Of a stretch of 64,000 nucleotides of DNA, positions 5,934 to 63,932 are shown piece after piece. Position 1 is the first letter of the stretch; the number at the start of each line of letters is the position of its first letter. This stretch comes from a virus, in IMG/VR virus record IMGVR_UViG_3300033146_003955, positions 1-64,000 of that record. One strand, written 5' to 3'. A program made the translations under genes and the position numbers. Under the pieces are notes generated by a model, which was not told where the DNA came from, ran no database searches, and saw nothing but the letters and a program-made list of their open reading frames with translations.

Positions 5934-6187
5934 GAAAAAGGATAACACAAACATTTGAACAATACGGATATGTTATGGTAGAATCATGTGAACCAGATAA
6001 TTCAGAATTATTAAATGATATTAAAACTTTTAATTTAGAATTTATAAATATGAATAATGGTTTTGATTGCTCTGAATATAAAATACAGGGTCTCCGCATG
6101 GATATTAAAGATATACTGAATATGCATTGGGGTAATAGTGAAGAGTATTTAGAAGAATTTGTAAATATTTCAAAGGGTGAAAAATGA
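5924..6187 (+). CDS. Hypothetical protein
   Basis: Overlapping operon ORF with SD. Confidence 0.55.
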   Translation: MEMRKRITQTFEQYGYVMVESCEPDNSELLNDIKTFNLEFINMNNGFDCSEYKIQGLRMDIKDILNMHWGNSEEYLEEFVNISKGEK

Positions 6188-6435
6188 TAGTTAGAAAACA
6201 AATAAAATATTTATTCTCTCACCCTAAAGAAGCTATGAGAAGTGGTTTATGGTTTTCTGGTGTGGAGAAGGAAGGTGAATTCAAACTCTGGTGGAATAAT
6301 GGTAATCTTAGAATGCACTATTTCTACAAAGATGGTAGAGAGCATGGTCCTTATAAAGAGTGGAATAGGAGTGGTAAATTAAGAGCATACGGTACATATA
6401 ACGAAGGCGAAATAGTTGAGGAGTTTTTAATATGA
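6184..6435 (+). CDS. MORN-variant repeat protein
   Basis: EGEFKLWWNNGNLR / HGPYKEWNRSGKLR repeats. Confidence 0.7.
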   Translation: MIVRKQIKYLFSHPKEAMRSGLWFSGVEKEGEFKLWWNNGNLRMHYFYKDGREHGPYKEWNRSGKLRAYGTYNEGEIVEEFLI

Positions 6436-6686
6436 CATATAGACAAGAGGCTATTGCAGATATATTTGCTTCATATACATTAGGTCTTACCAGAGGTTTT
6501 TGGCTTGATGAAATTGATCATGGAAAATATTTATATTATGGTGGTGGTATATTAAGAAAAGAATGTGAATATGATTACCTAGGTAATTTAGTAGGAGAGT
6601 ATAAAGCTTGGGATAATAAAGGTAGATTAACTATTCATCAAATATATAAAAATGGTAATGCAGTGAGGACATATGACACAGAATAA
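6432..6686 (+). CDS. MORN-variant repeat protein
   Basis: VGEYKAWDNKGRL...YKNG. Confidence 0.6.
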   Translation: MTYRQEAIADIFASYTLGLTRGFWLDEIDHGKYLYYGGGILRKECEYDYLGNLVGEYKAWDNKGRLTIHQIYKNGNAVRTYDTE

Positions 6687-13900: not shown

Positions 13901-16900
13901 GGCTATTATAAGTGGGACGGTAATAGCTGGATTGATACACAATATATTTATAAATGGACTTTATATGATACAGATTATGAATTAAGAGAGTTTAAAAATA
14001 AATATAATCAACTTATAACTTTTTCTGATGATGCATTAAATAAAAACTGGGTTGATTTGTCTATTACTTCTGGTTACAAACTTACTCCGGGTTCTTTACG
14101 GGTTAAAACAAATGTTGATACTGAAATTGGTTTTTCAGAAAATGAAGATTACTTTGTAGATTATGAAAATGGGAAGATAATACGTTCAACATTAGTTAAT
14201 TATCTAAAAGACTCAAATTTTGAATTTGTGGATATATTGACAGATTGGCAAAAGTATATAAATACATCAAGTTCTGGTGAAATAAATTTAGAGAAAAGAA
14301 TTGAATCTTTTACATCTTTTGAAAACGAAGAAAATGTATTAGGTTCATATGCTTCACTTTTTATTACGTCTTCAAGTACTGACAACGGAGCAATTTATCA
14401 AATAGTAACTCCAACATCATTGAATGTAGGTGACACATATACTTTTTCAGTATCATTAAAAACCAATAAATTTAAAGAAAGTAAAATTAGAATATCAGAA
14501 TGTACTAATAGTAATACCGATGATTTTACTAATACTCTTCCAGGCTCTGAATTAGAATATAGAATATTTGATGAAGATGCTGATCCATATAATACCTGGA
14601 AACGTTACGTAATATCACATACTATAACTGATGTAACATCAACCAAATTACGTGTTGAAATACATACCGACACTGATAGTATTGAACAACTTTTTATAAA
14701 AGAAGCACAACTTGAAAGAAACCAAATTGTTACTCCATATGTTAGAACAAATATAAATTCAAGATTAGACGCTGGTGCTCCGGTTTGGGTTGATTATACA
14801 GAAACAAGAACTTTAACTGTTGGTAGTGATTATTCGTTTGATATTGAAAATAGAAAAGTTATATTATATAACGAACCACTTGAAGATACTCAACTTTATT
14901 TTGATTATAAATACGAAAAAATATTTAATCCAAAAATCTATGGTACATCAATTCCTAAATTTGAAATAACTTATGATGATAGAGATGACTATTTTCTTTA
15001 TTTGTATGAAGGCAGAATATGGGCAATAAATTTAGTATTAGCTCTTCTCTCTCAAGACGAAGATAACCCGCTTATTATTAATTATAATTATCACTATCCA
15101 CGTATTGATAAAATTAAAATAAGAAATATACCTGATATATATGGTAATTATATTTATATAGTTAAAGGTAAACAAGACAGTATAAATCCATATGGTCCTT
15201 ATGACAAAGGAACTCAACGTTTAACTCATGTTCAAGAAGTTGATAGAAATGAAATAGAAAATACGAAATCAAATGAAATGTTATATGAAATAAACGTTTT
15301 AGATAACGATTATAATAATAATGATATTTATGACAGACGTATTTTTATAGAATCTAGAGATCATAGATATTTTAATATATCTCTTTATGATCAAACTGTT
15401 GGGTATATGCCCTTCACAAAAGATTTTATGTCTACGTCAGGTATGAATCCAATCAACAAGCTTAATAATTCTAAAATTGTAGATATTATTAAAAATTTTG
15501 ATATTAAACAATTAGAAGAAATTGGTGCTTGGGGTTCTAATTATCAATTAGTTTTAAGAAATAAATTACAATATCCAGCTACAGCATTATCTATTTTTGT
15601 AGATACAGACGTTTATTCTGATGGTACTAATAAAGGATCTGATACTAATAGTGGTGTAGATAAATTTAATCCTCTTAAAACAATAAAAGAAGCAGTGAGA
15701 AGAATTAAAGAAGAAAGCGCTCCACCAAATATCATTGTAGTAAGTCAAAGTCTTATAATAGAAGATATTGAAATTAATCATATAGAAACAATAAATATAT
15801 TTGCTGAAACATACGCAAGATGGAAAGGTAATATACAAAATATAACTCCTTTAAAGATGCAAGGTTTTATATTTGAAAATCATAATTTTTATGTTGTGCA
15901 TGAATTAGATTTATATTATAATACATTTAAAAATTGTACAGTAAATAATTATATTCCAACTCATATTCATTTTTATAATTGTGAAATTGATAGTGGAAAC
16001 AATACATTTCTTTATATTAAAAATATTTTATTTCCATCACCTTTTTTACATCCTTATCAGAGGAATTTAAATGCAAACGATAACGTAGAAGGAGATCCTA
16101 TTTCTGTAGCAACAGAGGATTTAGAATCTATTTATCCTAATGTAGATTCATATAATAAATTACTTGTTGGTAACCCTTCAGGTGACTATAGATTTGAAAG
16201 ATGTTTAGTTAATGGTTTAAGAGATGATTTTGTTAGATATGATTTAACTGACGAAGAGCCATGGATTAGTAGTTTTACATTTGAAAGATCAACAATAGTA
16301 AAAAATGCAAATATATTTTATACCAATAAATCTTCTCAAAATATAATTTATAATGAGTGTATTTTGTGGGAAAATAAAGAAATACGTGGTACTGAATCTA
16401 AGATATTTGATTCACGTTCAAATATAACACTTCAAAATTGTTTTATAGATTTTAATTCAGACGAAAGTAGTGACACAATAAATTATAATTTCAATGGTGA
16501 TGTTTATGGTAGAGAAACATGTATTGACGGTTCTTTTAACATAGAGCCTGGATTTATAAGTACACAAGCAAGATTTGAAAATTATCGTCTTCGGTCTGAA
16601 GCTATGGGTTATTTAACAGACTCAATAAATATAGGTAAAGCAACAGATGGTCGTGACCTTGGTTGTTACGATGAATTAAGAGAAAGATTAGATGTTGAAG
16701 TACCTAAAAAGTTAAAATCATATTTTGCTTTCATTGATGAAGGTATTCATTACCCTATAATTCTTAATTCAGAAAAAATTACATTTACTCTTGAATTTAA
16801 ACCATCAAATTCATTTAATACTCCATCTGTATTATTTGATACTCGTTCGTCTGCTGACGATAAAGATTATATAATGGTTGTATATAACAATAATTCTGGC

Positions 16901-19900
16901 GATAAAATTACTGATATAGAGCCAGATCCTACAGCAGAAATAACAGATCCATATACATTTAAAATTATATTAGTAAATGAAGAAACTAAATATGTTGTTG
17001 TATCCCCTATTAATATGTATTCTGATGCAGATTATCAAGTATGGAATACTATATCTTTTACAGCAAATTATGAAAAAACTTTCAATGAAAAATCTACATT
17101 TGATGAAAAAGATAAGTATCAAAATATTATAACATTTTTTCATAATGAAGAATTAGCTGTAGAATCTTTTTTAAAAAATGACTTAAGTTATGATGACCAT
17201 AATACTATACTTGAAGGTTATAATAACGATAATACAAATGCTTGGAATTATAATAATATAAGTAAATTTATAACAATAAGTTCTTCATTTGATAATAAAT
17301 ATATTTTAACTGGTTATTATTCAGAATTAAGAATTGATAATAAATTTATAAATCGTAAAGAGCTTGAAGCTTGGAATAATAAAGTTGTACCGTTTAATGA
17401 TCCAATAACTTATATTGATCAGAACAATCTTGCACGGACATTTGATTCATCTATTATAAATGAACTGTGGACACTCAAAACAAAATTTGATGTTGGTGCT
17501 AAAGGCCACCATTTTAATGAACTTACTAATAAACGATTTACATATGATGAAGGTGAATTAATTTGGGTATTAACTGGACCTACTGAAAATTATCTTAATA
17601 ATGCTGATTTAAATGAATCTATATTTGCGTCAGTAGTAACTGATATACCACCAAATAACGATACAGAAGACCTTTTCCCAATTGTATTTGACCATGAAAT
17701 GATTATAAAAACTTCTGGTAATACTAATTTTGATTCAACTACTGGTATTGTTGTAGACTTTCTAGACGGTGGAACACAATTTTACTCCCATGAAGAATTA
17801 TATGTTTTTTTACAAAATGTATTAAATGATCCAGTAAATGTTGCTTCCAAAATTCAAATTGAACTATTAACCGATAAAAGATTTAGAATATCAACAAATG
17901 ATTATTCAGCGGAATCAATATCTATAGAATTTAAAAACGATGGTGACGCAGAAGAATTTGGTTTTATAACTCCTTTTACAGGTAATCCTCCAGACCCTGA
18001 TGACGATTATATAGTTACACAGGGTATAGGTTATGATGGTGTTGGGGTTTCTACCATTATTACAGGTTTTAAAAATATTAATTCTATAGTTATAACAACA
18101 GGGATTGTTGACACGTTATCTATGGAACATAATGCTTGGTTAGAATATGGAGAACAATATACTAATCTATCCCCGACATCATTAGGTATAAGCAGAATAA
18201 TAACATCTAATAATGATGATACTATTGAAGCCAACGATAATAATGAAGATAAGTATATTACTATTTTAACTCATAGAAAATCTTCATATGAAATATTAAG
18301 CTTATACGATGAGACAAGTATAGAACCTATAGAATATACTTATTCAATATACATGTATAGAAGAAGTAACGAATTTAGCCAAGATGATGTTAAAGTCGTA
18401 ATTATAGGAGATACGTTAATTGAAGGTATCATTGAACCAGATTACCAAGTAGAATATGAATTTGATACTATAGAAAATATATATGGTTACTGGTGGAAAG
18501 CCACAAAAAGAATCAGAATATTATCTGATCAGTCTCCAGACATAGGGATAATAGTTAAAGGTGAATTAAGTTTTTATATAGATGCTTTCCAATTAGAAAA
18601 AGGTACATTTGCTTCTCCTTTTGTTGTAGACAATAACTCAAATCATGGTATGCTTGAATTGGACAAAGCACTTCTTAAACCAGATAGAGGTGTTATATTT
18701 TTTAGATTTAAACCACTTTTTGACTATTATACCACAGAAAAAAAGGTATTGTTAGAAATGCTCTCTTCGGAAGAAGTGAACGGTGTAGATGTTATAGATA
18801 AAACAAAAGGATTTAGAATTTGGTATAAATATAATGAAGAAATACAAAAAGGAACTATACAATTTAGAACTGTAAAAATAGAAGACGACGGAGATTTACC
18901 TGATGATGCTGCCTGGGAAGTTGTTGTATTAGAACAATTTTTCACTAATTGGCATACTATTATATTATCATATGATTTTAATACTAAAAGATTTTTATAC
19001 TTTTTTGATTATTTTAAAAATGCGGTAGATACTGGTGTAAATCAATATGAATTTTTTACAAATTTAAATATTGGTAGTGATATAAGAGGTTACGAAACTA
19101 ATGGTGCTACGATACCTGAATTTTCAGCTTCAGCAGATATTATGGTGAAAGACGTATTAATAACTAACTATACAACATCTGATCAAGAATTAAAAAATTG
19201 GATTAATGCTCATGAATTTTATAAAGAAACGTTATTTAATAATTTACTTGATTCCTACCAACATGATATGCTCGATGTTATCAAAAGCATAGAAAATATT
19301 TCAGTTAATACTTATGACATAGAACAAAATATAAATCTTTTAAATTCTAGAATAACTTCACTAGACAGTATAGTTGATTCTGCTACAGATATTCAACTCT
19401 TAAAAGTTAGGCAAGATGAGTTAAGAGATGAAGTGTTTGGGTCGACATCAAGTATATTAACAAATATAACAGATTTAGATACAGCGAGAGCCGCACATAA
19501 TATTAGAATAAGTACAAATAGTGATAGTATAGCTGCTAATAATATTTTAATAATTGAAAATACAAATCTTATTGCGCAAGAAGTATCTGATAGAATAAAT
19601 TTAATAAATGATCTTATTGTTAAATTAGCATCAACCAATTTAGGTGATGGTGCCTCAACAATTGGTGTACATGATCCAAATAATAAATTTACTTCCACTG
19701 ATGTCGAGGCGGTATTGTTAGAGATAGAGGATCGTGTTTCTACTAATGAAAACGGTATAGCAAACATCAATAATGGTGTATTAGGTCTTCAAACGGAAAT
19801 CAATCAGATGCAGGAAGGTGATGGTTCTACTTATGAGTGGACTGCCGCTAAAGCAATAAATAATGGTTGGAATATTGGTTCTATAAGAACTGATATTAAT

Positions 19901-53764: not shown

Positions 53765-54118
53765 ATGAGACAGATTAAAAGAGTACCGGAAAATGGCTTT
53801 ATTTATATAATTGCAAAACGTGATAAACATGATGTTTTAAGAGTTCATAGTACGGAAGGTTTATATGCACGACATAACAGTTTCGGTGAAAAAGAGGGAC
53901 TAGTTTATTTATATAATAAAAAAGAATTACTTAAAATTAAAACGAAGAAGGACGATTTTGTTATTAAGATAACATCTAAAGCTATAAAACAAATGTATGA
54001 AATAACACGTAAGAAAAGTTGGGATATATATTCTTATTATATTAAAGATAGAGTTGATCCTCTTTATAGGACGGCATTAAAATATGGAAATGGTAAACAT
54101 TCAAAGCATGTTGCATAA
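53765..54118 (+). CDS. Hypothetical protein
   Basis: AAGGA SD. Confidence 0.6.
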   Translation: MRQIKRVPENGFIYIIAKRDKHDVLRVHSTEGLYARHNSFGEKEGLVYLYNKKELLKIKTKKDDFVIKITSKAIKQMYEITRKKSWDIYSYYIKDRVDPLYRTALKYGNGKHSKHVA

Positions 54119-54184
54119 TTTATATTATGCAGAAAAGGCTAAAGCTTTATTATTAAGACCATATTGTTTCCATTGGAGTTCCAA

Positions 54185-54463
54185 ATGAATGAGGAAGTGA
54201 AAGCTAAACATCTCCTTTTAGGAAGCAAATGTAGTAATTGTATATATTGTGGTGCTGAGCCTAATAAAATTAGTTGTGTTCTCTCTCAATCATCTATAGG
54301 TAAAAATCGTATTTTTATACATGAAAATTTTTGTAGTTTTTATCTCTCAGACAAACTTATGAAAAATGAAAATTTCCATAGCAAGGTATATTCTAATTTA
54401 AAAAATTTTGGAAATTTGGAGAATGTTGTTAAGGAAATGGAGACATATCGTGGAATTAGCTAA
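54185..54463 (+). CDS. Cys-cluster protein with N-terminal AKxLL motif
   Basis: MNEEVKAKHLLLGSKCSNCIYC; GGAG SD. Confidence 0.65.
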   Translation: MNEEVKAKHLLLGSKCSNCIYCGAEPNKISCVLSQSSIGKNRIFIHENFCSFYLSDKLMKNENFHSKVYSNLKNFGNLENVVKEMETYRGIS

Positions 54464-54725
54464 ACAACTTTTATTAGGGAGGGATTGTAAGAACTGTATA
54501 TATTATACTACTCGTGAAAAGCTTGTGAGCGATCGTTGTATGTTGGAACATTATCCTGGAAGGGGAGACGATTATCCAGGTCATAATTTGTGCACCTCAT
54601 ATGCTTCTTGCACTATACAGAATAATAATGATTTTATGCGTGCTATAATGCTTCGCAAGAATTACGTCACATTTGATGATATGAAATACTTTGTAGAAAA
54701 AGTAGAAGAATATAAAGATGAATGA
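54450..54725 (+). CDS. Cys-cluster protein, paralog of previous
   Basis: VELAKQLLLGRDCKNCIYY; GGAG SD before GTG 54450. Confidence 0.65.
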   Translation: MELAKQLLLGRDCKNCIYYTTREKLVSDRCMLEHYPGRGDDYPGHNLCTSYASCTIQNNNDFMRAIMLRKNYVTFDDMKYFVEKVEEYKDE

Positions 54726-54736
54726 TTTAAAAATAT

Positions 54737-54916
54737 ATGAAGTATAGAAACGAAGTAAGATCTACAATATATGTAAGGCCGCTACATAATCCTAAACGAG
54801 GGAAATGTGATTTATGTTCTACTTATACTTGGACACATAATACAGAGTTTGAAGGTGAGGAATTATATCTTTGTAATAAATGTAAAGAGGATTTGTTTTA
54901 TCATGAAAGTAGGTGA
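54737..54916 (+). CDS. Small Zn-finger protein (missing from ORF track)
   Basis: MKYRNEV...CDLC...LCNKCKEDLFYHESR*. Confidence 0.55.
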   Translation: MKYRNEVRSTIYVRPLHNPKRGKCDLCSTYTWTHNTEFEGEELYLCNKCKEDLFYHESR

Positions 54917-55151
54917 TTGGCTTTTTGAGGCACATGATATAGGAGGAGATGAAATAAATATATTAATGGAAATTATATATATTGATAAAGATGAACTTGA
55001 AGTTATGTGGTATGATACGAAAGAAAGTTGGCCAGAAATAGATAAAGAAGTAATAGCAAGAGATGAAATAGAACGTTATTTAGACACAGGCGATATTGTA
55101 ATAATAAATGAAATAGAAGCAGCTAAATATTTATTAGCGGGGATAAAATGA
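54903..55151 (+). CDS. Hypothetical protein with C-terminal AKxLL motif
   Basis: GAGGA SD; MKVGDW...EIEAAKYLLAGIK. Confidence 0.6.
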   Translation: MKVGDWLFEAHDIGGDEINILMEIIYIDKDELEVMWYDTKESWPEIDKEVIARDEIERYLDTGDIVIINEIEAAKYLLAGIK

Positions 55152-55657
55152 CAAGCGGAAAATTAATTGAATTATTGAAAGAAGTAGATCCAGAAGGTAA
55201 ATATCATATAAGAGCAAGTGGTGGTGCAGTTTTAGATGTTGAGAGGAAACCTGGTTATTGGGACGGGATGTATAGATATTTTGATGAGGATGGTAATTTT
55301 GTAATTTCCACTGAAGGTGATAAAATTGATATTGATTCTATAGACCTAGAAACATGGATTTGGAATAGTAAAGGAAATGAAGATAAGGTTAAATTTGATC
55401 TAACTTACTTAGATGATGGTGAACACGAGAGAGATATTAAAGATAAAATCAAAGAATATGTAAAAGATAGAGACAGGTTAAGTGATCAATTTATGAAATC
55501 TTCTGTTTATGACATAATGTTGAAGATAAAAGGAGGCTGGAAAATTATTCAGAGGGGTGAAAAATGGTCTGGTACTTACTATGTTAAAGGTGTGAGAAAG
55601 AAGAAATTAACTGTGGGTGAAATAAGAACGCTAAAGGATTCGAAGCTCTTTAAATAA
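55148..55657 (+). CDS. Hypothetical phage protein
   Basis: MT..KLIELLKEVDP...PGYWDG. Confidence 0.65.
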   Translation: MTSGKLIELLKEVDPEGKYHIRASGGAVLDVERKPGYWDGMYRYFDEDGNFVISTEGDKIDIDSIDLETWIWNSKGNEDKVKFDLTYLDDGEHERDIKDKIKEYVKDRDRLSDQFMKSSVYDIMLKIKGGWKIIQRGEKWSGTYYVKGVRKKKLTVGEIRTLKDSKLFK

Positions 55658-55723
55658 AAAAAAGGTAGATGGAAATTAATAGTTAAAATGTAATTAAATA
55701 CCTCCTCCCCCTAAAGATAGTAT

Positions 55724-55981
55724 ATGATATATTTCACACCGGAGTTGTATACTTTCTATTCATATGGAATTAATTATGAAACTCGTTACTATTATCACTT
55801 TGATGAGAGTATTGACGTTTGGTATTATTTAATTTATGAAAATGGTCGTATAATTAGAAGCCATGAATTTGATAAATTTCTTCGTCTTCGTTATGATGAT
55901 CACGATAAAATTGATTATGACCCCTCCAATAAAATATGTCATGAATTTTTTCAATTTGTATTTAGATTCGAAGGATTATAA
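55724..55981 (+). CDS. Hypothetical protein, leaderless, with IxxIF-like motif
   Basis: AAGATA 4 nt before ATG; HEFFQFVF. Confidence 0.55.
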   Translation: MIYFTPELYTFYSYGINYETRYYYHFDESIDVWYYLIYENGRIIRSHEFDKFLRLRYDDHDKIDYDPSNKICHEFFQFVFRFEGL

Positions 55982-56080
55982 TGGCAAATAGAAATGGAAG
56001 AAGGTGATCAAATAAGGAATAAGTAGAAAACAAACTTAATAAAAGCATAATTAAATATATAACTAAAAGTAGGAGTAAAT

Positions 56081-56377
56081 ATGAAATTAAAAGTATTCGG
56101 CGATAGAATTGTTTTTAGAGCCCTTCCAGATGACCAAGTCATAGAAGAGAAATCAGCAGGTGGTATCATTATACCCCAAGCAGTCAGAGAAAATATGAAA
56201 GCTCAAAGACGTAACTACAAAGGTGAAGTAGTTATGGCGGGTGATAAATGCGAATTTGTTAAGGAAGGCGATATAGTTAGCTATGATGAATACGGTGTTG
56301 CATCCTTTTGGCATTTAGGTGAAGAATTGATAATTGTTCGTGAGAAGGATTTAATTGGAAAATATGACGAAGATTAA
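56081..56377 (+). CDS. groES: Co-chaperonin GroES
   Basis: MKLKVFGDRIV...EKSAGGIIIP...GEVVMAG...VKEGDIV...IVREKDLIG. Confidence 0.88.
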   Translation: MKLKVFGDRIVFRALPDDQVIEEKSAGGIIIPQAVRENMKAQRRNYKGEVVMAGDKCEFVKEGDIVSYDEYGVASFWHLGEELIIVREKDLIGKYDED

Positions 56378-57456
56378 TGCCTTCTAAATTAACAACCAAA
56401 GAATTTATAAATAAAGCTAAACAAATACATGGCAACAAATATGATTATTCTTTGGTTGATTATAAAAATAATAAAACTAAAGTTAAAATAATATGTTCTA
56501 AGCATGGTATATTTGAACAGGTTGCATCGAATCATATGAACGGTTCGATTTGTCCAATTTGTGCAAATCGTGTTCAATACACAACTAAAGAATTTATAGA
56601 GAAAGCTAAACAAATACATGGTAACAAATATGATTACTCTTTGGTTGTATATAAAGGTAATAAAGGTAAAGTTAAAATAATATGTCCAGAACATGGTATA
56701 TTTGAACAAACGCCTAATAACCATTTAAGTAAAAAAGTTGAATGTCCAAAATGCAAAAATACTAAATATACAACTGAAGAATTTGTAGAGAAAGCTAAAC
56801 AAATACATGGCGAAAAGTATGATTATTCATTAGTTAATTATAAAAATATAAAAACTAAAATTAAAATAATATGCCCTAAACATGGTATATTCGAACAATT
56901 TCCGGTACATCATATTAGAGGCACAAAATGCGCTAAATGTGCAAATTCTAATTTGTATATGACTACCAATGATTTTATAAAAGAAGTCAAAAAAATACAT
57001 GGCGAAAAGTATGATTATTCTTTAGTTGATTATAAAGGTTATATATCAAAAATTAAAATTATATGTATAAAACATGGTATGTTTGAACAAGACACTTATT
57101 CGCATTTACACGGAAGTGGTTGTCCCAAATGTAAAGAAAGTCAAGGTGAAACTAAAGTTCGTTTATTTTTAGAAAAGAAAAATATAAATTATATACAAGA
57201 ATATAAATTTAAAAATTGTGTTTCGAAAGAATCATTAAGATTTGATTTTTATCTTCCTACTGAAAATATCTTAATAGAATATGATGGAGAACAACATTTT
57301 AAAGCTATGAATTATTTTGGTGGCATTGAAGCCTTTAATAGATTAAAAATACGAGATGAAATAAAAAACCAATATTGTATTGATAATGATATACAATTGA
57401 TAAGAATTAAATATGATGAAAGCGTAGAAGATAGATTAAATGAAAGTAATCTTTGA
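56377..57456 (+). CDS. Putative homing endonuclease: four Zn-binding repeats plus C-terminal PD-(D/E)xK/Vsr-like domain
   Basis: 4x TT.EFI.KAK.IHG.KYDYSLV.Y......IIC..HG.FEQ...H....C..C; FDFYLP...IEYDG.QHF. Confidence 0.8.
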   Translation: MPSKLTTKEFINKAKQIHGNKYDYSLVDYKNNKTKVKIICSKHGIFEQVASNHMNGSICPICANRVQYTTKEFIEKAKQIHGNKYDYSLVVYKGNKGKVKIICPEHGIFEQTPNNHLSKKVECPKCKNTKYTTEEFVEKAKQIHGEKYDYSLVNYKNIKTKIKIICPKHGIFEQFPVHHIRGTKCAKCANSNLYMTTNDFIKEVKKIHGEKYDYSLVDYKGYISKIKIICIKHGMFEQDTYSHLHGSGCPKCKESQGETKVRLFLEKKNINYIQEYKFKNCVSKESLRFDFYLPTENILIEYDGEQHFKAMNYFGGIEAFNRLKIRDEIKNQYCIDNDIQLIRIKYDESVEDRLNESNL

Positions 57457-57742
57457 GAAAGTACCAAGATGTGATAAATGTCCATATTTTCATATGCATG
57501 ATGTTCCGTACGATGTAGAAATTGATGCGGAACAATGGTATGAATGTGGTTTAACAGATAAAATACTTATCTATTTTGAAAAGTTAGACGAATGGCAAAG
57601 AGAACATGAAATGAAATACCCTTTCACAATTCCAATTTGGTGTCCGCTTGAAAATTGGGACCTTTTTCATTACGCAATAGATGCTACAAAAGAGCAGCAA
57701 ATGATGTTATTTGCGGAAGAATCTAAAGATAAGCATAATTGA
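57440..57742 (+). CDS. Cys-containing hypothetical protein
   Basis: CDKCPY...C...IPIWCPL. Confidence 0.6.
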   Translation: MKVIFEKVPRCDKCPYFHMHDVPYDVEIDAEQWYECGLTDKILIYFEKLDEWQREHEMKYPFTIPIWCPLENWDLFHYAIDATKEQQMMLFAEESKDKHN

Positions 57743-57790
57743 TGATGTTCCTTTTGCGAGGAATATATTTTTATATAGGAGGAGCCTAGA

Positions 57791-58432
57791 ATGCAAAACG
57801 TGTTAGACAGCAGAGTGTTAGTACTCAACAAAAATTATAGTCCAATAAGAACTACCTCAGTTAGAGAAGCCTTTACAAAAATCTTCTCAGAAGCTGCTGA
57901 AGTTATAACAGTGGAAGACGGAGTTTATATGAACTACGACTTTGGCTCATGGTCAGAGTTATCAGAGTTTAAGCAGCTCTATGATGCGGACGATACTGAA
58001 CTAGAATTTGTTGATTGGATTAATACCCCGAATACTAAACTTGTGGTTCCTCGTGTGATTAGACTTACTAAATATGATAAAATGCCTAAGTATCAATTAC
58101 GTCTAACTCGTAAGAATATTTATGAGAGAGACGGATATACTTGCCAATACTGTGGAAATAAATATGCGACTGAAGATTTAAATCTCGACCATGTTACACC
58201 TCGCTCTAAAGGCGGAAAGAATACTTGGACAAATCTTGTTTGTTCTTGTATCTCCTGCAACAGGAAGAAGAAGGCACATACTCTTAAAGAGGCTGGTATG
58301 AAGTTACGTAAGAAACCAGTTAAACCACATGAAAATTTCGCCTTCCGTGTGGGTTCTAAAGCTAAAAAGTATAAAGATTGGGAACATTTCCTATCAGACG
58401 CATATTTTAATGTTACATTAGACGAAAGTTAG
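57791..58432 (+). CDS. HNH endonuclease (McrA/HNH_5-like)
   Basis: VLVLN..Y.P, RD.YTCQYCG, LDHVTPRSKGG...W.NLV..C..CN..K. Confidence 0.9.
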   Translation: MQNVLDSRVLVLNKNYSPIRTTSVREAFTKIFSEAAEVITVEDGVYMNYDFGSWSELSEFKQLYDADDTELEFVDWINTPNTKLVVPRVIRLTKYDKMPKYQLRLTRKNIYERDGYTCQYCGNKYATEDLNLDHVTPRSKGGKNTWTNLVCSCISCNRKKKAHTLKEAGMKLRKKPVKPHENFAFRVGSKAKKYKDWEHFLSDAYFNVTLDES

Positions 58433-58440
58433 ATAAAATT

Positions 58441-58469
58441 AAGGAGTGAATAAAATCACTCCTTTTTTT
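58441..58469 (+). terminator. Rho-independent terminator
   Basis: AAGGAGTGA...TCACTCCTT + T run. Confidence 0.8.
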
Positions 58470-58495
58470 ATTTATATTGTAGCATAGTTGTTTAT

Positions 58496-58924
58496 ATGAC
58501 AGATGAAAAAGAAAAACAATTGACAGAACGATTTTCATTCCTTAGAACTAGTGGTGATCCGACGAAGGATTTAATGGTTCTCGGTTTCGCATGTAATGAC
58601 GGTTGGTTTCAGACCATCTGGGACCTTTGCGAAGATTTAGATAAGATGAATAAAGAAAGGATGAAAAACATCTCCCAAGATGAGATTGCTAAAGCCATTT
58701 TAGACCACGGGTACAATCCATATGAATTTAAAGTTGTACAAGTTAAAGAGAAATTTGGCTCTCTTAGATTTTATACCAACGTCGCTAATGATAAGATGTA
58801 TAAAAGAATTCGAGAAGCTGAGGATGCCACGACTGAAATATGTGAGGATTGCGGTGCACCTGGTTCTATAAGAAATAATGGTTGGATTAAATGCCAATGC
58901 GATAAATGTTTTGAGAATAAATGA
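58496..58924 (+). CDS. Conserved phage Zn-ribbon protein
   Basis: DGWF, QVKEKFGSLRFY, CEDCG...C..C; leaderless, ATG 14 nt from the G of GCATA. Confidence 0.7.
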   Translation: MTDEKEKQLTERFSFLRTSGDPTKDLMVLGFACNDGWFQTIWDLCEDLDKMNKERMKNISQDEIAKAILDHGYNPYEFKVVQVKEKFGSLRFYTNVANDKMYKRIREAEDATTEICEDCGAPGSIRNNGWIKCQCDKCFENK

Positions 58925-59241
58925 ATATGGAAGAAAACCAATTGGCCAAAGATCTCTTAACTGGTAGATCATCTATTACGTATGTAAAAAAGAATTATAG
59001 TATGAAATTTATGATGCGTGCATCTACTAAGAAAAAGGATTTATATTTCTTTAAAACTCTTTTTAGATATCTAACCCAAAAAAAATATTCGTCGCTATAT
59101 ACATGTAGAAAAATATATAATTTTAACTTTCCTTCAGATGAAAGTAGTTTCGTAATGATGGAAATAAAATTTGACAGGACATCTCCTTGCACTACTGCGG
59201 ACGATCGGTGGGAATCATATAAAAAATTAATGAAAAATTAA
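58921..59241 (+). CDS. Hypothetical protein with N-terminal AKxLL motif
   Basis: EENQLAKDLLTG. Confidence 0.55.
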   Translation: MNMEENQLAKDLLTGRSSITYVKKNYSMKFMMRASTKKKDLYFFKTLFRYLTQKKYSSLYTCRKIYNFNFPSDESSFVMMEIKFDRTSPCTTADDRWESYKKLMKN

Positions 59242-59242
59242 A

Positions 59243-59272
59243 TTTTGGATATGTACATAAATGTAGTATAAT
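59243..59272 (+). promoter_or_regulatory. Sigma70-like promoter of the ligase operon
   Basis: TTTTGGAT-N16-TATAAT. Confidence 0.6.
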
Positions 59273-59289
59273 AACATTAGGAGAATAAT

Positions 59290-60579
59290 ATGTTAAATGA
59301 TTTATACAATTTAGTAAAAGAATTAAATACTACAAACTCAAGTAATAAGAAGAAAGAGATATTAATAAAGTATCCTCAATGTAAAGAACTTCTTATATGG
59401 GTTTATTCATATAAAACGCTTTTTAATGTCACATCTAAGAATGTAAAAAAAAGGAGTGATTTAAAAGATGCAACTGCTTTTGAAGACATTATAGAACTTT
59501 TAACGGCCCTTAATAATAGAGATATTACAGGCCATGCTGCCATTTCAGCAGTTAATGCCTTCATAGAACATAACTCAGAATTTGAAGATCTCATTTATTT
59601 AATTATAGATAAGAATTTAAAAACACGTACAGACACCTCACTTATCAATAAAGTATGGCCGGGTCTTATACCTACATTTGACGTACAGTTAGCAATTGAT
59701 TATGAGAAGCAGAAACATAAAGTTGATTATGTAAAAGATGAATGGAGATCGAGTCGAAAATTAGATGGCGTAAGGTGTATAGTAAAATGTAACGATAGAG
59801 GAATACCGTCATTTTTTTCGAGGGAAGGTAGAGAGTTCACGACGCTTAATAATATTAAAGAAGATATTATGCATCTTCCTTTAGCATTAAGGAAAAATAA
59901 AGTTTTTGACGGTGAGATTTGTATAGTAGACGAGAATGGTAATGAAAATTATAAATCTATTATGAATGTTATTAAAAAGAAAAATTTTACCATTCCCAAT
60001 CCTCGTCTCATCCTCTTTGATTATTTGAAAATGGATGAATTTCTAACTAAAAAAGGGAAAATAATATTTTCTAAGAGATATGAAGCCCTCAAACTTCTTC
60101 CCTTCAATCCTAGATTTATAGTAGTTACAGACCAGATTCTTATTAAAGATGAAGACCATTTCCAAGAGTTGAGGGATGAAGCAACTGATAATGGGTGGGA
60201 AGGCTTAATAATAAGAAAGGATGTTGTTTACAAGGGAAAGAGAAGTAATGATATGCTTAAAGTTAAGAAATTCCACGATGCTGAATATACAGTTGTTGGT
60301 ATTGAAACTGGACTTTTTAGAATAATTGATAAAGTTACTAAACTTGAGAGAGAAGAAGATATGCTTACTAGGGTTAATATTCTCCATAAAGGCAATGTTG
60401 TTGGTGTTGGAAGTGGTTTTTCTATTAGTGAAAGGCAACGTTATTTTCTCCATCCTGAAGAAATTATCGGAAAGGAAATAACTGTACGCTATTTTGAAAC
60501 AACAAAAGACAAGAATGGAAAGGAAAGTTTAAGATTTCCAACTGTTAAGTTTATATTTGAAAATGGAAGAGATGTATGA
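59290..60579 (+). CDS. lig: ATP-dependent DNA ligase
   Basis: Motif I KLDGVR, FDGEI, FD, EGLIIR, KVKK, OB-fold VGSGFS, SLRFP. Confidence 0.93.
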   Translation: MLNDLYNLVKELNTTNSSNKKKEILIKYPQCKELLIWVYSYKTLFNVTSKNVKKRSDLKDATAFEDIIELLTALNNRDITGHAAISAVNAFIEHNSEFEDLIYLIIDKNLKTRTDTSLINKVWPGLIPTFDVQLAIDYEKQKHKVDYVKDEWRSSRKLDGVRCIVKCNDRGIPSFFSREGREFTTLNNIKEDIMHLPLALRKNKVFDGEICIVDENGNENYKSIMNVIKKKNFTIPNPRLILFDYLKMDEFLTKKGKIIFSKRYEALKLLPFNPRFIVVTDQILIKDEDHFQELRDEATDNGWEGLIIRKDVVYKGKRSNDMLKVKKFHDAEYTVVGIETGLFRIIDKVTKLEREEDMLTRVNILHKGNVVGVGSGFSISERQRYFLHPEEIIGKEITVRYFETTKDKNGKESLRFPTVKFIFENGRDV

Positions 60580-60749
60580 TAATTGAAATGGGGTCTATGC
60601 CGATAAACTGGCGGAGAGCAGATATAGTTTTAGTTCATAAAGATAAAGAAATTTATGAAGTAGGAAAGGATAGGCAAAATATATTTGCAAACCTGCCTAG
60701 CACTCTTCACGTAAGTGAAATAGCTAAAATGTTATTAGTGAGAACATAA
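60576..60749 (+). CDS. 57-aa protein (missing from ORF track), ADh...K-x-R family with AKxLL
   Basis: ATGA and TAATG overlaps at both ends; RRADIVLV...VGKDRQ...SEIAKMLL. Confidence 0.6.
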   Translation: MIIEMGSMPINWRRADIVLVHKDKEIYEVGKDRQNIFANLPSTLHVSEIAKMLLVRT

Positions 60750-61045
60750 TGGATTTAAGCCAATATAAAAGTATTTTTATTACTAAATATAAAATTAATT
60801 ATACTGGAGCAAAAATACCTGATGACAAAGGTTCTGCTCTTAATACATATAGAGCTGATTTAATTTTAATTGATACTGGTAATAACGTTTTTAAAGTTGT
60901 TAAAGATAGATACGAAGCAGCAAATAACACAATAATAATAACTGATAATGAGATGGCAAAATTACAATTATTAGATAATATATTACAACCAATAAAAGGA
61001 ATTAAATTAAAACGAAAGCCAAGATGGTTATTGCAGTTAATATGA
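60749..61045 (+). CDS. Hypothetical protein, ADh...K-x-R family
   Basis: RADLILI...VVKDRY...NEMAKLQLL. Confidence 0.6.
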   Translation: MDLSQYKSIFITKYKINYTGAKIPDDKGSALNTYRADLILIDTGNNVFKVVKDRYEAANNTIIITDNEMAKLQLLDNILQPIKGIKLKRKPRWLLQLI

Positions 61046-61221
61046 TTAAGTTTATAAATATTTTAGCATCTATACTTGCAACAGTAATATTGTTACTGCT
61101 GATAGCAGACTCTCCAATAGCAGGTATAATGTTATTATTTTTTATATTATTGTCTTCAGATAAAGTTACAGATTTAATTAAATTTATAAGGTTAAATATA
61201 AAGAGTATGAGGACGAAATAA
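61024..61221 (+). CDS. Small two-TM membrane protein
   Basis: Two hydrophobic helices; probable start 61042. Confidence 0.55.
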   Translation: MVIAVNMIKFINILASILATVILLLLIADSPIAGIMLLFFILLSSDKVTDLIKFIRLNIKSMRTK

Positions 61222-61224
61222 GTA

Positions 61225-61833
61225 ATGACTAAAGAAGATTTTAAGAAGAAACTTAAAGGAAGAGAATTAGATTTCGCCACTTTCGTTGCTGAGGCTATAA
61301 TTATGGACCCAACTATCGAGGATTTAGAATTTGAAATAGCAAAAGATAGGTTGGAAAGATATACGAAAGAAGAATTGATAAAGAAGTTAAAGGATATGAA
61401 TAATATAACAACTTCCTTATATACAGCTATACATAGTTGGAGTAATCATAATTGTAATCATGAAAGATGGAAGGATAATGCAATAGATATTTATGAAAGA
61501 GCAATTAAACATGGTCTTATATATGATCGTTTCGGCCTTTATAACGACAAAGAGGTGGGAGTAGATTTGAGGGAGTATAAGAAAATAACTGTTCATGAGC
61601 CTACAGGGAAGATTAATCTTGATTGGACTTATATAACTAATGGGGAGGGTTATACAACTCTTGAAAATGATATGTATCCTGATTTAGAGCTGGTTAGAAC
61701 TTATAATGATCCTAATAAATTTTATATTCTTCAAAATAACAAAGGACCAAGAGGGTGTTTAACAACCATAGATGAGAGTAAAATAATGGCTATAGCAGCT
61801 AAAAATAAGTTGGTTGAAGATGAAACTGAGTGA
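61225..61833 (+). CDS. Hypothetical protein with C-terminal ADh...K-x-R-like domain
   Basis: PDLELV...NKFYILQNNKGPRG. Confidence 0.6.
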   Translation: MTKEDFKKKLKGRELDFATFVAEAIIMDPTIEDLEFEIAKDRLERYTKEELIKKLKDMNNITTSLYTAIHSWSNHNCNHERWKDNAIDIYERAIKHGLIYDRFGLYNDKEVGVDLREYKKITVHEPTGKINLDWTYITNGEGYTTLENDMYPDLELVRTYNDPNKFYILQNNKGPRGCLTTIDESKIMAIAAKNKLVEDETE

Positions 61834-61871
61834 ATACAGGAATATTATTATAATAAAGCATATAGCTGATA

Positions 61872-62135
61872 ATGCTTGACTTAACATCATATAAAAATAT
61901 AGTAATAGCACGGCCTCGTAGGAATTTTGAAGAATTTAATGACGATGATAAAGATTTTAAATATTGTCCCCAAGTTTCAAATGAAGTATGGACTAAAACA
62001 GATCTTTTATTAGTACAAACTGAATATGATAATAAATATTACATTTATAAAAATAGATATGGAGATAAGGGTTGGAAAACGACTCTTACTGAAGAACAAG
62101 CTGCAAAAATATTTCTTACTACAAAACTTATTTAA
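61872..62135 (+). CDS. Hypothetical protein, ADh...K-x-R family
   Basis: TDLLLV...YYIYKNRYG...EEQAAKIFL. Confidence 0.6.
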   Translation: MLDLTSYKNIVIARPRRNFEEFNDDDKDFKYCPQVSNEVWTKTDLLLVQTEYDNKYYIYKNRYGDKGWKTTLTEEQAAKIFLTTKLI

Positions 62136-62367: not shown

Positions 62368-63438
62368 ATGAGAAAATTAACAACTAAAGAATTTATACAA
62401 AAAGCTAAATTAAAACATGGTAATAAATATGATTATTCTTTAGTTGATTACATAAATAATAAAATTAAAATAAAAATAATATGCCCTAAACATGGTATAT
62501 TTGAACAAACACCGAACAATCATTTAAATGGTACATTATGTTACAAATGTGTAAATATAGTAAAAACAACTAAAGAATTTATACAAAAAGCTAAGTTGAA
62601 ACATGATAATAAGTATGATTATTCTTTAGTAAAATATAAAGATTCAAAAACCAAAGTTAAAATAATATGTCTAGAACATGGTACATTTGAACAAACACCA
62701 AACAATCATTTAAATGGTAAAAATTGTTTAATTTGTGCTGGCCATGAAAAATTAACAACTAAAGAATTTATACAAAAAGCTAAGTTGAAACATGGTAATA
62801 AATATGATTATTCTTTAGTTGATTATATCAATAGTCAAACTAAAGTTGAAATAATATGTTTAGAACATGGTATATTTAAACAATTGCCTAATAGCCATTT
62901 AAATGGCATAGGATGTCCTACCTGCGGTGGTACTAAAAAATTAACAACTAAAGAATTTATACAAAAAGCTAAATTAAAACATGATAATAAGTATGATTAT
63001 TCTTTAGTTGATTATATCAATAGTCAAACCAAAGTTAAAATAATATGTTTAGAGCATGGTATATTTGAACAAACACCAAATAGCCATTTAAATGGCGTAG
63101 GTTGTCCTATCTGTAAATCATCCAAAGGTGAGCAACAAATAATAAATTATCTAAAAAGAAATAATATAAAATATATAAAAGAATATAAATTTAATAATTG
63201 TAAAAACATGAGACCATTACCATTTGATTTTTATCTCCCTGATAAAAATATATTAATAGAATATGATGGAATACAACATTTTAAACCTTTTACTTTTTTT
63301 GGAGGTGTTAATGGTTTAAATTATAGAATACGTAATGATAATATAAAGACTGAATATTGTAAAAATTATAATATAAAATTAATAAGAATAAAATATAACG
63401 ATGTTGTGAATAAAAAATTAAAAATTGATATTTTTTAG
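62368..63438 (+). CDS. Putative homing endonuclease, paralog of 56377..57456
   Basis: Four near-identical ~62-aa Zn repeats plus FDFYLP...IEYDGIQHF. Confidence 0.8.
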   Translation: MRKLTTKEFIQKAKLKHGNKYDYSLVDYINNKIKIKIICPKHGIFEQTPNNHLNGTLCYKCVNIVKTTKEFIQKAKLKHDNKYDYSLVKYKDSKTKVKIICLEHGTFEQTPNNHLNGKNCLICAGHEKLTTKEFIQKAKLKHGNKYDYSLVDYINSQTKVEIICLEHGIFKQLPNSHLNGIGCPTCGGTKKLTTKEFIQKAKLKHDNKYDYSLVDYINSQTKVKIICLEHGIFEQTPNSHLNGVGCPICKSSKGEQQIINYLKRNNIKYIKEYKFNNCKNMRPLPFDFYLPDKNILIEYDGIQHFKPFTFFGGVNGLNYRIRNDNIKTEYCKNYNIKLIRIKYNDVVNKKLKIDIF

Positions 63439-63491: not shown

Positions 63492-63932
63492 ATGGATTTT
63501 GGAAATTTCCTAAACGAATTGAATGAAGACAATAAACTTGTACGAAGAGTATCAAGTAAACAACTTAGAGAAGCAAACGGTGAATCTGCTTCAGCACTCA
63601 AAGAAGATGCTAAATGGTATTATGTACCTACAAAAGAATACGGTGGATTTCGACATATTGTTGTTGAGCATGGAAATGGATGGGGCGTATATTATTTAGA
63701 TCAAATTGCTGGTGCTGGTCAAGATGCTGCTGATGTATCTGGTTGGGGAGATGAATACGAAATGAGCAGAAACGAAGAAAAAGATTTAAACAATCTTAGA
63801 AACTTCCTTCTTAATGAAGCACAAGGTGAAGATAACGGAGTTGACCTTACTGGTTTCATCGTAAGAAGAAAAGTTGAAGGTGACTTTGCAACAGTTCTTA
63901 AAGAATGTGTAGAAATCGTTAAAAAAGGTTAA
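63492..63932 (+). CDS. Acidic protein, candidate head/prohead-core component
   Basis: GGAGG SD; AAGATA at 63449; multiple L-x-E sites (FLNE, LNE, LRE, LKE). Confidence 0.55.
   Translation: MDFGNFLNELNEDNKLVRRVSSKQLREANGESASALKEDAKWYYVPTKEYGGFRHIVVEHGNGWGVYYLDQIAGAGQDAADVSGWGDEYEMSRNEEKDLNNLRNFLLNEAQGEDNGVDLTGFIVRRKVEGDFATVLKECVEIVKKG

What the first reader, a model, noticed from the sequence alone, without database searches (positions are those of the whole stretch)
54185..62135. A second tag, E-x-A-K-x-L-L, marks small proteins of the replication-region cluster
Seen: EVKAKHLLLG (54185), ELAKQLLLG (54450), EAAKYLLAG (54903), EIAKAILDH (58496), QLAKDLLTG (58921), EIAKMLLV (60576), EMAKLQLL (60749), EIAKDRLE and IAAKNKLV (61225), EQAAKIFL (61872). 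It sits at N-termini, C-termini, or in 58496 between the conserved GW and QVKEKFG blocks as if grafted into a loop. I did not see it on the 1-10 kb small ORFs, which carry IxxIF instead. Inference: a second address peptide for a different hub or compartment. Together with IxxIF this suggests a two-tag system that lets many accessory proteins be recruited by adding a short helix.
Basis: partly seen in the sequence, partly recalled or inferred. Interest (0 to 1): 0.78.

Follow-up and report, generated by a model that had tools for sequence, protein, structure and literature searches.

The report
Portable AKxLL end-helix on phage miniproteins
A short helix (Ala-Lys-x-Leu-Leu) sits at the very start or end of about 20 small proteins of this large uncultured phage and its distant relatives, far more often than chance allows, so it is probably a shared recognition handle, although what recognises it is unknown.

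Summary
Only five fit a strict motif (AK.LL); the others are degenerate paralogue variants or probably chance. The strict motif is real. It occurs 21 times in the 158.8-kb genome against 1.24 in shuffles, is encoded at peptide level, and lies within 20 residues of a protein end in 19 of 21 cases. It replicates in a distantly related 40.6% G+C phage (32 against 1.23).

Much of it is the invariant N-terminal helix of an undescribed family of small four-cysteine proteins. That family has 603 cluster representatives, 9 copies here and 38 profile matches in the relative. The Ala lies exactly 9 residues before the first CxxC in 135 of 135 representatives.

After removing that family, unrelated small proteins still carry it (25 against 2.3 in two phages). 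It sits mostly at either terminus, with strict residue specificity and the same flanks.

I read it as a portable recognition helix for one unknown partner (about 0.5). The closest analogue is the T4 capsid targeting sequence.

The "two-tag" idea is weak: IxxIF is not enriched genome-wide.

The scan has reported the same motif before in other phage genomes.

The parts
54084..54188 (+). 34-aa ORF holding a decayed copy of the four-Cys family N-terminus (AKALLLRPYC, motif at 54138). It keeps the Ala-to-Cys spacing of 9 but has lost CxxC.
54185..54463 (+). Four-Cys family member (92 aa). N-terminal AKHLL at 54203-54217, followed by GSKCSNC.
   Evidence: profile E 2.6e-27
54450..54725 (+). Four-Cys family member, a tandem paralogue of the previous gene. 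AKQLL at 54459-54473. The likely start is GTG 54450; an alternative ATG lies at 54423.
   Evidence: E 1.3e-8 to 54185; E 3.9e-29
54903..55151 (+). 82-aa Cys-free protein with C-terminal AKYLL at 55122-55136, 4 residues before the stop. It matches no family and has no homologues other than near-identical copies.
58496..58924 (+). 142-aa GW...QVKEKFG...CxxC protein. A lineage-specific insertion of about 17-20 aa carries a degenerate motif (DEIAKAILDHG, 58682-58714). The insertion is kept in the G001 orthologue as DEKAKIFLEGG and is absent from four distant homologues.
58921..59241 (+). 106-aa protein with N-terminal LAKDLLTGR (58945-58959) and no CxxC. It is either unrelated cargo or a decayed family member.
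60576..60749 (+). 57-aa protein with C-terminal EIAKMLL (60723-60737), 3 residues before the stop.
60749..61045 (+). Paralogue of the 60576 protein. Its homologous helix is degenerate (EMAKLQLL, 60956).
61872..62135 (+). Paralogue of the 60576 protein. Its homologous C-terminal helix is degenerate (QAAKIFL, 62103).
61225..61833 (+). 202-aa ORF with two loose sites (AKDRL at 61339, AKNKL at 61798). I do not count these as instances of the motif.

Best explanation
AKxLL, in extended form [DE]-x-x-h-A-K-x-L-L-x-G, is a short amphipathic helix under residue-specific selection. It serves as a shared protein-protein recognition element in a lineage of large uncultured phages, at least one of which has a T4-type head.

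It is the invariant N-terminal helix of a large undescribed family of small four-cysteine metal-binding proteins. The same peptide has also been placed on the extreme N- or C-terminus, and in one case in an inserted loop, of unrelated small accessory proteins.

Shown: the enrichment, the peptide-level encoding, the terminal position, the residue specificity, the shared flanks, and recurrence on non-homologous cargo in two distant phages.

Inferred: all carriers dock through this helix to one common partner. My leading guess for the partner is the scaffolded prohead, that is, loading of small proteins for co-injection as with the T4 capsid targeting sequence. An unfoldase or protease reading it as a terminal degron, or another hub, are alternatives. 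The partner was not identified.
For: Enrichment and replication: 21 against 1.24 in G000 and 32 against 1.23 in G001 at 40.6% G+C.

Peptide level, not DNA: the Leu and Ala codons vary roughly as in the genome. The degenerate DNA pattern occurs 21 times in the sense coding frame, against 3, 0 and 2 in the other frames and antisense.

Terminal placement: the Ala is at index 6 in 80 of 150 family representatives. Among non-Cys carriers, 18 of 25 lie within 12 aa of an end, against a null of 6.3.

Specificity in non-Cys proteins: AK.LL 25 against 2.3 expected, while AR.LL is 1/1.0, SK.LL 2/2.7, AK.LI 1/2.3, AK.LM 0/0.7 and LL.KA 0.

Flanks that were not searched for match the Cys family: Gly at +6 in 9/25 (p = 1e-5) and an acidic residue at -4 in 10/25 (compare).

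Size restriction: proteins of 175 aa or less have 22 against 0.73 expected; larger proteins have 3 against 1.5.

Cargo: non-Cys carriers of G000 and G001 are not homologous to each other, and the two phages share only 14 of 220 proteins. C-terminal copies are kept between orthologues of two further contigs. There is a lineage-specific insertion in the 58496 family.

Capsid link: G001 has a T4-type capsid protein (E 8.7e-71) next to a scaffold-like gene. PMC3012670 describes T-even internal proteins as diverse proteins sharing only a CTS.
Against: No receptor was found, and no complex could be modelled with these tools.

In the four-Cys family the helix lies exactly 9 residues before CxxC in 135/135 members, with no linker. 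That fits a structural cap of the metal site. A solved class I cytochrome c has the same AKxhh-x4-CxxC arrangement.

N-terminal carriers without Cys could be decayed family members.

The internal copy in the 150493 protein is simply a conserved helix of that family.

Unlike the T4 CTS, the motif also occurs at C-termini. A protease-site Glu at +5 is present in only 48 of 135 members.

G000 itself has no Gp23 match.
Confidence: 0.5

Rival explanations
1. It is an ordinary structural helix. In other proteins it is just a terminal capping helix, for example an N-cap of the MORN solenoid, and there is no common partner.
For: The spacing to CxxC is fixed in 135/135 members. A, K, L, L are as invariant as the Cys ligands. 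Cytochrome c555 shows the same helix-CxxC arrangement, and HiPIPs share the Cys pattern. AF2 predicts helix 3-11 with pLDDT like the rest of the domain. The internal copy in 150493 is conserved in its paralogue.
Against: A generic structural helix in unrelated folds should tolerate K to R, A to S or G, and L to I, M, V or F. None of these variants is enriched in non-Cys proteins. This reading also does not explain the strong terminal bias, the shared Gly at +6 and acidic -4, or the insertion into the 58496 family.
Confidence: 0.25
2. It spread by module shuffling without a function of its own. The N-terminal coding segment of the amplified four-Cys genes spread to neighbouring genes by recombination or fusion within arrays and persists by descent.
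For: Carriers lie in the same small-ORF blocks as the arrays. A decayed copy lies at 54084-54188. 80557 keeps a Cys at +9 in front of MORN repeats.
Against: Codons and flanks differ between copies, so the spread is not recent. C-terminal copies cannot arise simply from an N-terminal module, and they are conserved between orthologues. Only the four motif residues are kept.
Confidence: 0.12
3. It is a terminal degron: the peptide is read by a host or phage AAA+ unfoldase or protease to time the turnover of early accessory proteins.
For: Native ClpX substrates carry recognition motifs at the N- or C-terminus (PMC5415555, citing Flynn et al. 2003). The motif is strictly terminal and sits on small proteins. 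From memory, not checked here: the lambda O and Dps N-terminal ClpX signals contain T-A-K followed by an aliphatic residue.
Against: Using one identical motif at both ends is not how the known ClpX signal classes work. Nothing here links the carriers to a protease. The test of MoxR co-occurrence was inconclusive.
Confidence: 0.1
4. It is a chance or compositional effect of an AT-rich genome, or a DNA/RNA signal at gene junctions.
For: GCT AAA ... TTA are the commonest codons. Many copies lie near gene boundaries.
Against: The maximum in shuffles was 4 against 21 observed. The effect replicates at 40.6% G+C. It is specific to frame and strand, and the synonymous codons vary.
Confidence: 0.01

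Closest known systems
T4 capsid targeting sequence (CTS) of internal proteins IPI/IPII/IPIII and Alt
   Same: A short conserved terminal peptide is the only thing shared by a diverse, fast-evolving set of small phage proteins (PMC3012670). At least one tag-bearing phage has a T4-type capsid protein and a scaffold-like gene.
   Different: The CTS is N-terminal only and, to my knowledge, ends in a prohead-protease site. AKxLL occurs at either end and in a loop, and has Glu at +5 in only about a third of family members. In the four-Cys family it is fused without a linker to a metal knuckle. Encapsidation was not shown.
High-potential iron-sulfur proteins (HiPIP, PF01355)
   Same: The family profile aligns all four Cys and the Trp (KTCxNC...C...CxxW) with three solved HiPIPs, with similar Cys spacings.
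   Different: E-values are only 0.017-0.07. Pfam's HiPIP model finds nothing in either phage at E<=10 or in 25 members at E<=1. The HiPIP N-terminal half is replaced by the AKxLL helix. The metal is unknown.
Lineage-specific expansion (about 35 copies) of a zinc ribbon in Bacillus phage G (Iyer et al. 2021, PMC7824862)
   Same: A small Cys4 domain is amplified to tens of copies in a large phage (compared).
   Different: No sequence match to any record of the phage collection (tblastn, E<=1). No shared terminal helix is reported there.
N-terminal helix plus CxxCH of class I cytochromes c (Aquifex c555, PDB 9l08)
   Same: VAKAIFQQKGCGSC against IAKNLLEGKTCDNC: the same Ala-to-Cys spacing of 9 and the same hydrophobic pattern.
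   Different: There is no His after the second Cys; position +13 is variable. The family is therefore not a haem-binding site. The resemblance is only in the local helix-knuckle arrangement.
ClpX N- and C-terminal recognition signals
   Same: Short motifs that must lie at a free terminus (PMC5415555).
   Different: The sequence classes differ, and no link to a protease was shown.

Membership tests
T4-type capsid targeting sequence | A short conserved N-terminal peptide shared by otherwise unrelated small phage proteins | tested here: met
   N-terminal copies occur on the four-Cys family, MORN proteins, 58921, 92199, 129115 and G001 8877/48517/61531/61733. The motif also occurs at C-termini, which the CTS does not.
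T4-type capsid targeting sequence | The peptide ends in a prohead-protease cleavage site (L/I-x-E) | tested here: not met
   Glu at +5 (LLE) occurs in 48 of 135 family members and 4 of 25 non-Cys copies. C-terminal copies cannot be removed this way.
T4-type capsid targeting sequence | The phage builds a T4-type prohead on a scaffolding core | tested here: inconclusive
   G001 has a Gp23 match (E 8.7e-71) next to an acidic coiled-coil gene. G000, which is 80% complete, has no Gp23 match at E<=10.
T4-type capsid targeting sequence | Carriers are found inside virions | not testable with these tools
   This needs virion proteomics or reporter encapsidation.
HiPIP (PF01355) | Four Cys ligands in the CxxC...C...CxxW pattern, alignable to solved HiPIPs | tested here: met
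   Profile A9 aligns with 3h31, 1hlq and 1hpi, with all four Cys and the Trp in register, at E 0.017-0.07.
HiPIP (PF01355) | Reaches the curated Pfam threshold | tested here: not met
   No HiPIP hit in 25 members at E<=1, nor in G000 or G001 at E<=10.
HiPIP (PF01355) | Binds a [4Fe-4S] cluster | not testable with these tools
   This needs purified protein and spectroscopy or metal analysis.
Class I cytochrome c | CxxCH haem-attachment motif | tested here: not met
   The residue after the second Cys is variable (K/I/Y/S/N). The aromatic residue or His comes one position later.
Phage G-type zinc-ribbon expansion | A small Cys4 domain in tens of tandem copies per genome | tested here: met
   Nine copies in G000, 38 profile matches in the 114-kb G001 fragment, and arrays in L041 and L042.
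Phage G-type zinc-ribbon expansion | Sequence homology to the phage G domain | tested here: inconclusive
   tblastn of one member against 50,697 phage records gave no match at E<=1. A short query has low power.
ClpX-type terminal degron | The recognition motif lies at a free N- or C-terminus | tested here: met
   19 of 21 copies and 18 of 25 non-Cys copies are terminal.
ClpX-type terminal degron | The tag confers protease-dependent instability | not testable with these tools
   This needs reporter half-life assays.

The most novel reading that the evidence does not exclude
AKxLL is an undescribed, uncleaved address peptide that works at either end of a protein. One receptor, such as the scaffolded prohead interior or an ATP-driven remodeller, would use it to collect 20-50 unrelated small accessory proteins per phage. 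These include a hypervariable library of four-Cys miniproteins. The system would be shared across a wide lineage of uncultured large T4-like phages.
Probability: 0.4. Interest if true: 0.85.

Novelty: new variant of a known kind. Interest (0 to 1): 0.7.

Why it matters
If one receptor reads this peptide, it defines a simple address code for a large share of the unknown small genes of big uncultured phages. It would also give a handle for finding what those genes do together, for example a co-injected anti-defence arsenal like the T4 internal proteins. It could be used as a ready-made tag for loading foreign proteins into such phages.

Independently of the tag question, the four-Cys family is a large protein family absent from Pfam and PHROGs. 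It has 603 representatives at 50% identity and up to tens of copies per genome. Its only invariant residues are A, K, L, L and four Cys.

Tried and rejected
- Composition or chance: rejected by shuffles and by replication at a different G+C.
- A DNA or RNA signal at gene junctions: rejected by frame and strand specificity and by synonymous codon variation.
- Known families: Pfam and PHROGs found nothing for the carriers except MORN_2 on three proteins.
- Close relatives: megablast of the region, the ligase in IMG/VR, and word-indexed searches for 131653 and 54903 returned nothing or only near-identical copies.
- Structure: two AF2 models of the 61-aa member (25-row and 105-row alignments) stayed at pLDDT about 65. 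Foldseek and VIA-align found no credible fold. The tools do not show contacts, so I could not tell whether the helix packs on the domain.
- HiPIP membership by Pfam: not met.
- Motif strings in the literature: no paper found.
- The Gp23 hits on P0007, P0014 and P0019: I first took these for the capsid propeptide. They correspond to the conserved segment after the propeptide region.
Full report
WHAT IS IN THE WINDOW. The window is the first 64 kb of a 158,812-bp virus record with 31% G+C, estimated about 80% complete. No cultured phage is close: megablast found nothing, and the ligase is at most 33% identical to those of Bacillus phages. Five fit a strict pattern, AK.LL, at 54203, 54459, 55122, 58945 and 60723. 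The remainder are looser.

IS IT MORE THAN CHANCE? I used a crude but unbiased ORF set of 220 ORFs and 49,429 aa.
- AK.LL occurs 21 times, against 1.24 +/- 1.15 in 300 within-protein shuffles, with a maximum of 4.
- The signal is in the peptide, not the DNA. Ala and Leu codons vary roughly as they do genome-wide. The degenerate DNA pattern occurs 21 times in the sense coding frame, against 3 and 0 in the other two frames and 2 antisense.
- Nineteen of 21 copies lie within 20 residues of a protein end, against a null of 9.6 (no simulation of 5,000 reached 19). The N-terminal copies put the Ala at about residue 6-9. The C-terminal copies end 2-4 residues before the stop.
- The copies fall in 12 BLAST clusters.

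THE LARGEST SINGLE CONTRIBUTOR IS ONE UNDESCRIBED FAMILY. Nine genes of this genome, two of them in the window (54185 and 54450), share the layout M-x5-AKxLLxG-x2-CxxC...C...CxxW.
- A distantly related IMG/VR contig (G001, 114 kb, 40.6% G+C, about 49% complete) gives 38 profile matches arranged in tandem arrays.
- A profile search of 1.84 billion representatives found 603 members at E<=1e-3. Almost all are 50-150 aa and match from residue 1.
- In the best 150, 133 have strict AK.LL, and the Ala is at index 6 in 80. The Ala-to-first-Cys distance is exactly 9 in 135 of 135.
- The only invariant or nearly invariant columns are M1, A, K, L, L and the four Cys. Mean column identity is 14-17%.
- Pfam, PHROGs, the ESM Atlas and a literature search give the family no name.
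- The family profile weakly matches three solved HiPIPs, with all four Cys and the Trp in register (E 0.017-0.07). Its N-terminal part matches the N-terminal helix plus CxxC of a class I cytochrome c with the same spacing.
- Pfam's HiPIP model finds nothing in either phage, and there is no His for haem attachment.
In this family the helix and the first metal knuckle therefore form one rigid unit, and a structural role as a cap of the metal site is a sufficient explanation. AF2 predicts helix 3-11, three strands and a C-terminal helix, but only at pLDDT about 65, and no fold match was found.

THE MOTIF IS ALSO ON UNRELATED CARGO. After removing the four-Cys family, G000 keeps 13 copies and G001 keeps 12 under the same filter (the stricter split left 13), against about 1.1-1.2 expected in each.
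- N-terminal carriers include three MORN-repeat proteins, 58921, 92199 and 129115. The last of these carries a second copy at its C-terminus.
- C-terminal carriers include 54903, 60576, 153412 and 155733, and in G001 40184, 51527, 63240, 98122 and 100022.
- The two phages share only 14 of 220 proteins, and none of their non-Cys carriers are homologous to each other. The peptide has therefore been combined with different cargo repeatedly.
- Two further contigs (L041 and L042, 40-42% G+C) show the same arrays plus Cys-free proteins with C-terminal copies. These copies are kept between orthologues with small changes: EYAKFLLSE in both, AKALL/AKAML and AKVLL/AKFMM.

SPECIFICITY. This test avoids ascertainment bias. 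In 82,028 aa of non-Cys proteins from both phages, AK.LL occurs 25 times against 2.3 expected. Conservative variants are at background: AR.LL 1/1.0, SK.LL 2/2.7, GK.LL 1/2.6, AK.LI 1/2.3, AK.LM 0/0.7, AK.LF 0/1.4. AK.IL is at most mildly raised (6/2.3). The reversed pattern occurs 0 times. Positions that were not part of the search agree with the four-Cys family: Gly at +6 in 9 of 25 (p = 1e-5) and an acidic residue at -4 in 10 of 25 (p = 1e-3). Eighteen of 25 lie within 12 residues of an end, against a null of 6.3. The enrichment is confined to proteins of 175 aa or less (22 against 0.73), with none in larger proteins (3 against 1.5). A generic amphipathic helix in unrelated folds would tolerate K/R and L/I/M swaps, so this argues for recognition of the exact residues.

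THE INDIVIDUAL WINDOW INSTANCES.
- 54185 and 54450 are tandem four-Cys paralogues. A decayed third copy (AKALLLRPYC) lies just upstream in a 34-aa ORF.
- 54903 is a Cys-free 82-aa protein with a C-terminal copy and no relatives beyond near-identical ones.
- 58921 has the N-terminal copy without Cys.
- 60576, 60749 and 61872 are paralogues whose homologous C-terminal helix reads AKMLL, AKLQLL and AKIFL.
- In the 58496 protein, four distant homologues lack 11-22 residues exactly where this phage has ...DEIAKAILDHG. The G001 orthologue (51% identical) keeps the insertion as DEKAKIFLEGG.
- The two sites in 61225 have no support.
- The internal copy in the 150493 protein, outside the window, is a conserved helix of that family.

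THE TWO-TAG IDEA. I..IF occurs 25 times against 18.3 +/- 4.1 in shuffles, and I..[IL]F 38 times against 33.8 +/- 5.7, so there is no genome-wide enrichment. Seven copies do cluster in the first 10.5 kb, mostly near termini, which I did not test further. In the MORN family the 'IxxIF' N-terminus of 6184 (QIKYLFSH) aligns with EAKFLLTH of 80557. The two may therefore be variants of one h-h-x-x-h-h helix, not two separate addresses.

MECHANISM. The properties shown are those of a terminal recognition peptide. The closest described analogue is the T4 capsid targeting sequence. [quoted passage not shown]
- G001 has a T4-type capsid protein next to an acidic coiled-coil scaffold-like gene.
- Three family members on related contigs carry, after the four-Cys domain, a 38-residue copy of the conserved capsid-protein segment (Pfam Gp23 positions 6-44; 30.8 and 26.1 bits against a cut-off of 24.4).
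These facts make prohead loading my leading guess, but they are circumstantial. Against it: G000 has no Gp23 match, the motif also works from the C-terminus, and a cleavage-type Glu is not conserved. A terminal degron is the main alternative use, since ClpX substrates carry signals at either end (PMC5415555). A purely structural helix remains a serious rival, because of the rigid coupling in the four-Cys family.

RELATION TO EARLIER NOTES. After I had reached these conclusions, I found that the scan had reported the same motif in other phage genomes and in other windows of this genome, with similar readings. My minimal check was inconclusive.

VERDICT. The partner and function are unknown. I rate the interest as fairly high.

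Noticed in passing
L041:10001-10432 and L042:10001-10474 (proteins P0014, P0019; also P0007): Four-Cys family members that continue with a ~38-residue copy of the conserved T4-type capsid-protein segment (…LLPLVRRVYPSMIAKELISVQP…). They match Pfam Gp23 positions 6-44, two of them above the curated cut-off. The segment is nearly identical to residues ~60-96 of the G001 capsid protein. It could be a capsid-incorporation or decoy module.
   Followed up: partly
window 6184-6686 and L001:9020-9412, 16557-17313: Five MORN_2 paralogues. Two begin with the 'IxxIF'-type helix and three with AKxLL, at the same aligned position.
   Followed up: partly
window 56377-57456 and 62368-63438 (further copies at genome 81836, 93180, 139321, 146671): Multiple paralogous genes made of repeated ...HG(N/D)KYDYSLV...KIICxxHGxFEQ...CPxC units followed by a nuclease-like C-terminus. 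They look like free-standing homing endonucleases scattered through the genome.
   Followed up: no
window 56081-56377: A GroES/gp31-like co-chaperonin gene sits among the tag-bearing small ORFs.
   Followed up: no
window 63492-63932 and genome 63955, 66572, 67400, 84117, 96482, 125432: A different N-terminal motif of the type (D)F(L/F)NELNE recurs on several proteins, including the MoxR/peptidase/VWA operon noted by another follow-up.
   Followed up: no
L001:8130-9020 (genome 72130-73020): A 296-aa protein with a CxxxCxxC radical-SAM-type motif near its N-terminus lies immediately upstream of the AKxLL-tagged MORN gene 73020.
   Followed up: no
L004, around genome 138622 (- strand): A tiny uncalled ORF begins MIVEEAKILLLRDEYYEYY... 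It has an N-terminal motif and may be a truncated MORN-type gene.
   Followed up: no
L049:443-2913: The G001 head module has a highly acidic coiled-coil scaffold-like gene followed by a Gp23-type capsid protein. The capsid N-terminus reads ...EREKLLVKWQPFLEG..., a faint resemblance to the tag (KLL / FLEG).
   Followed up: no
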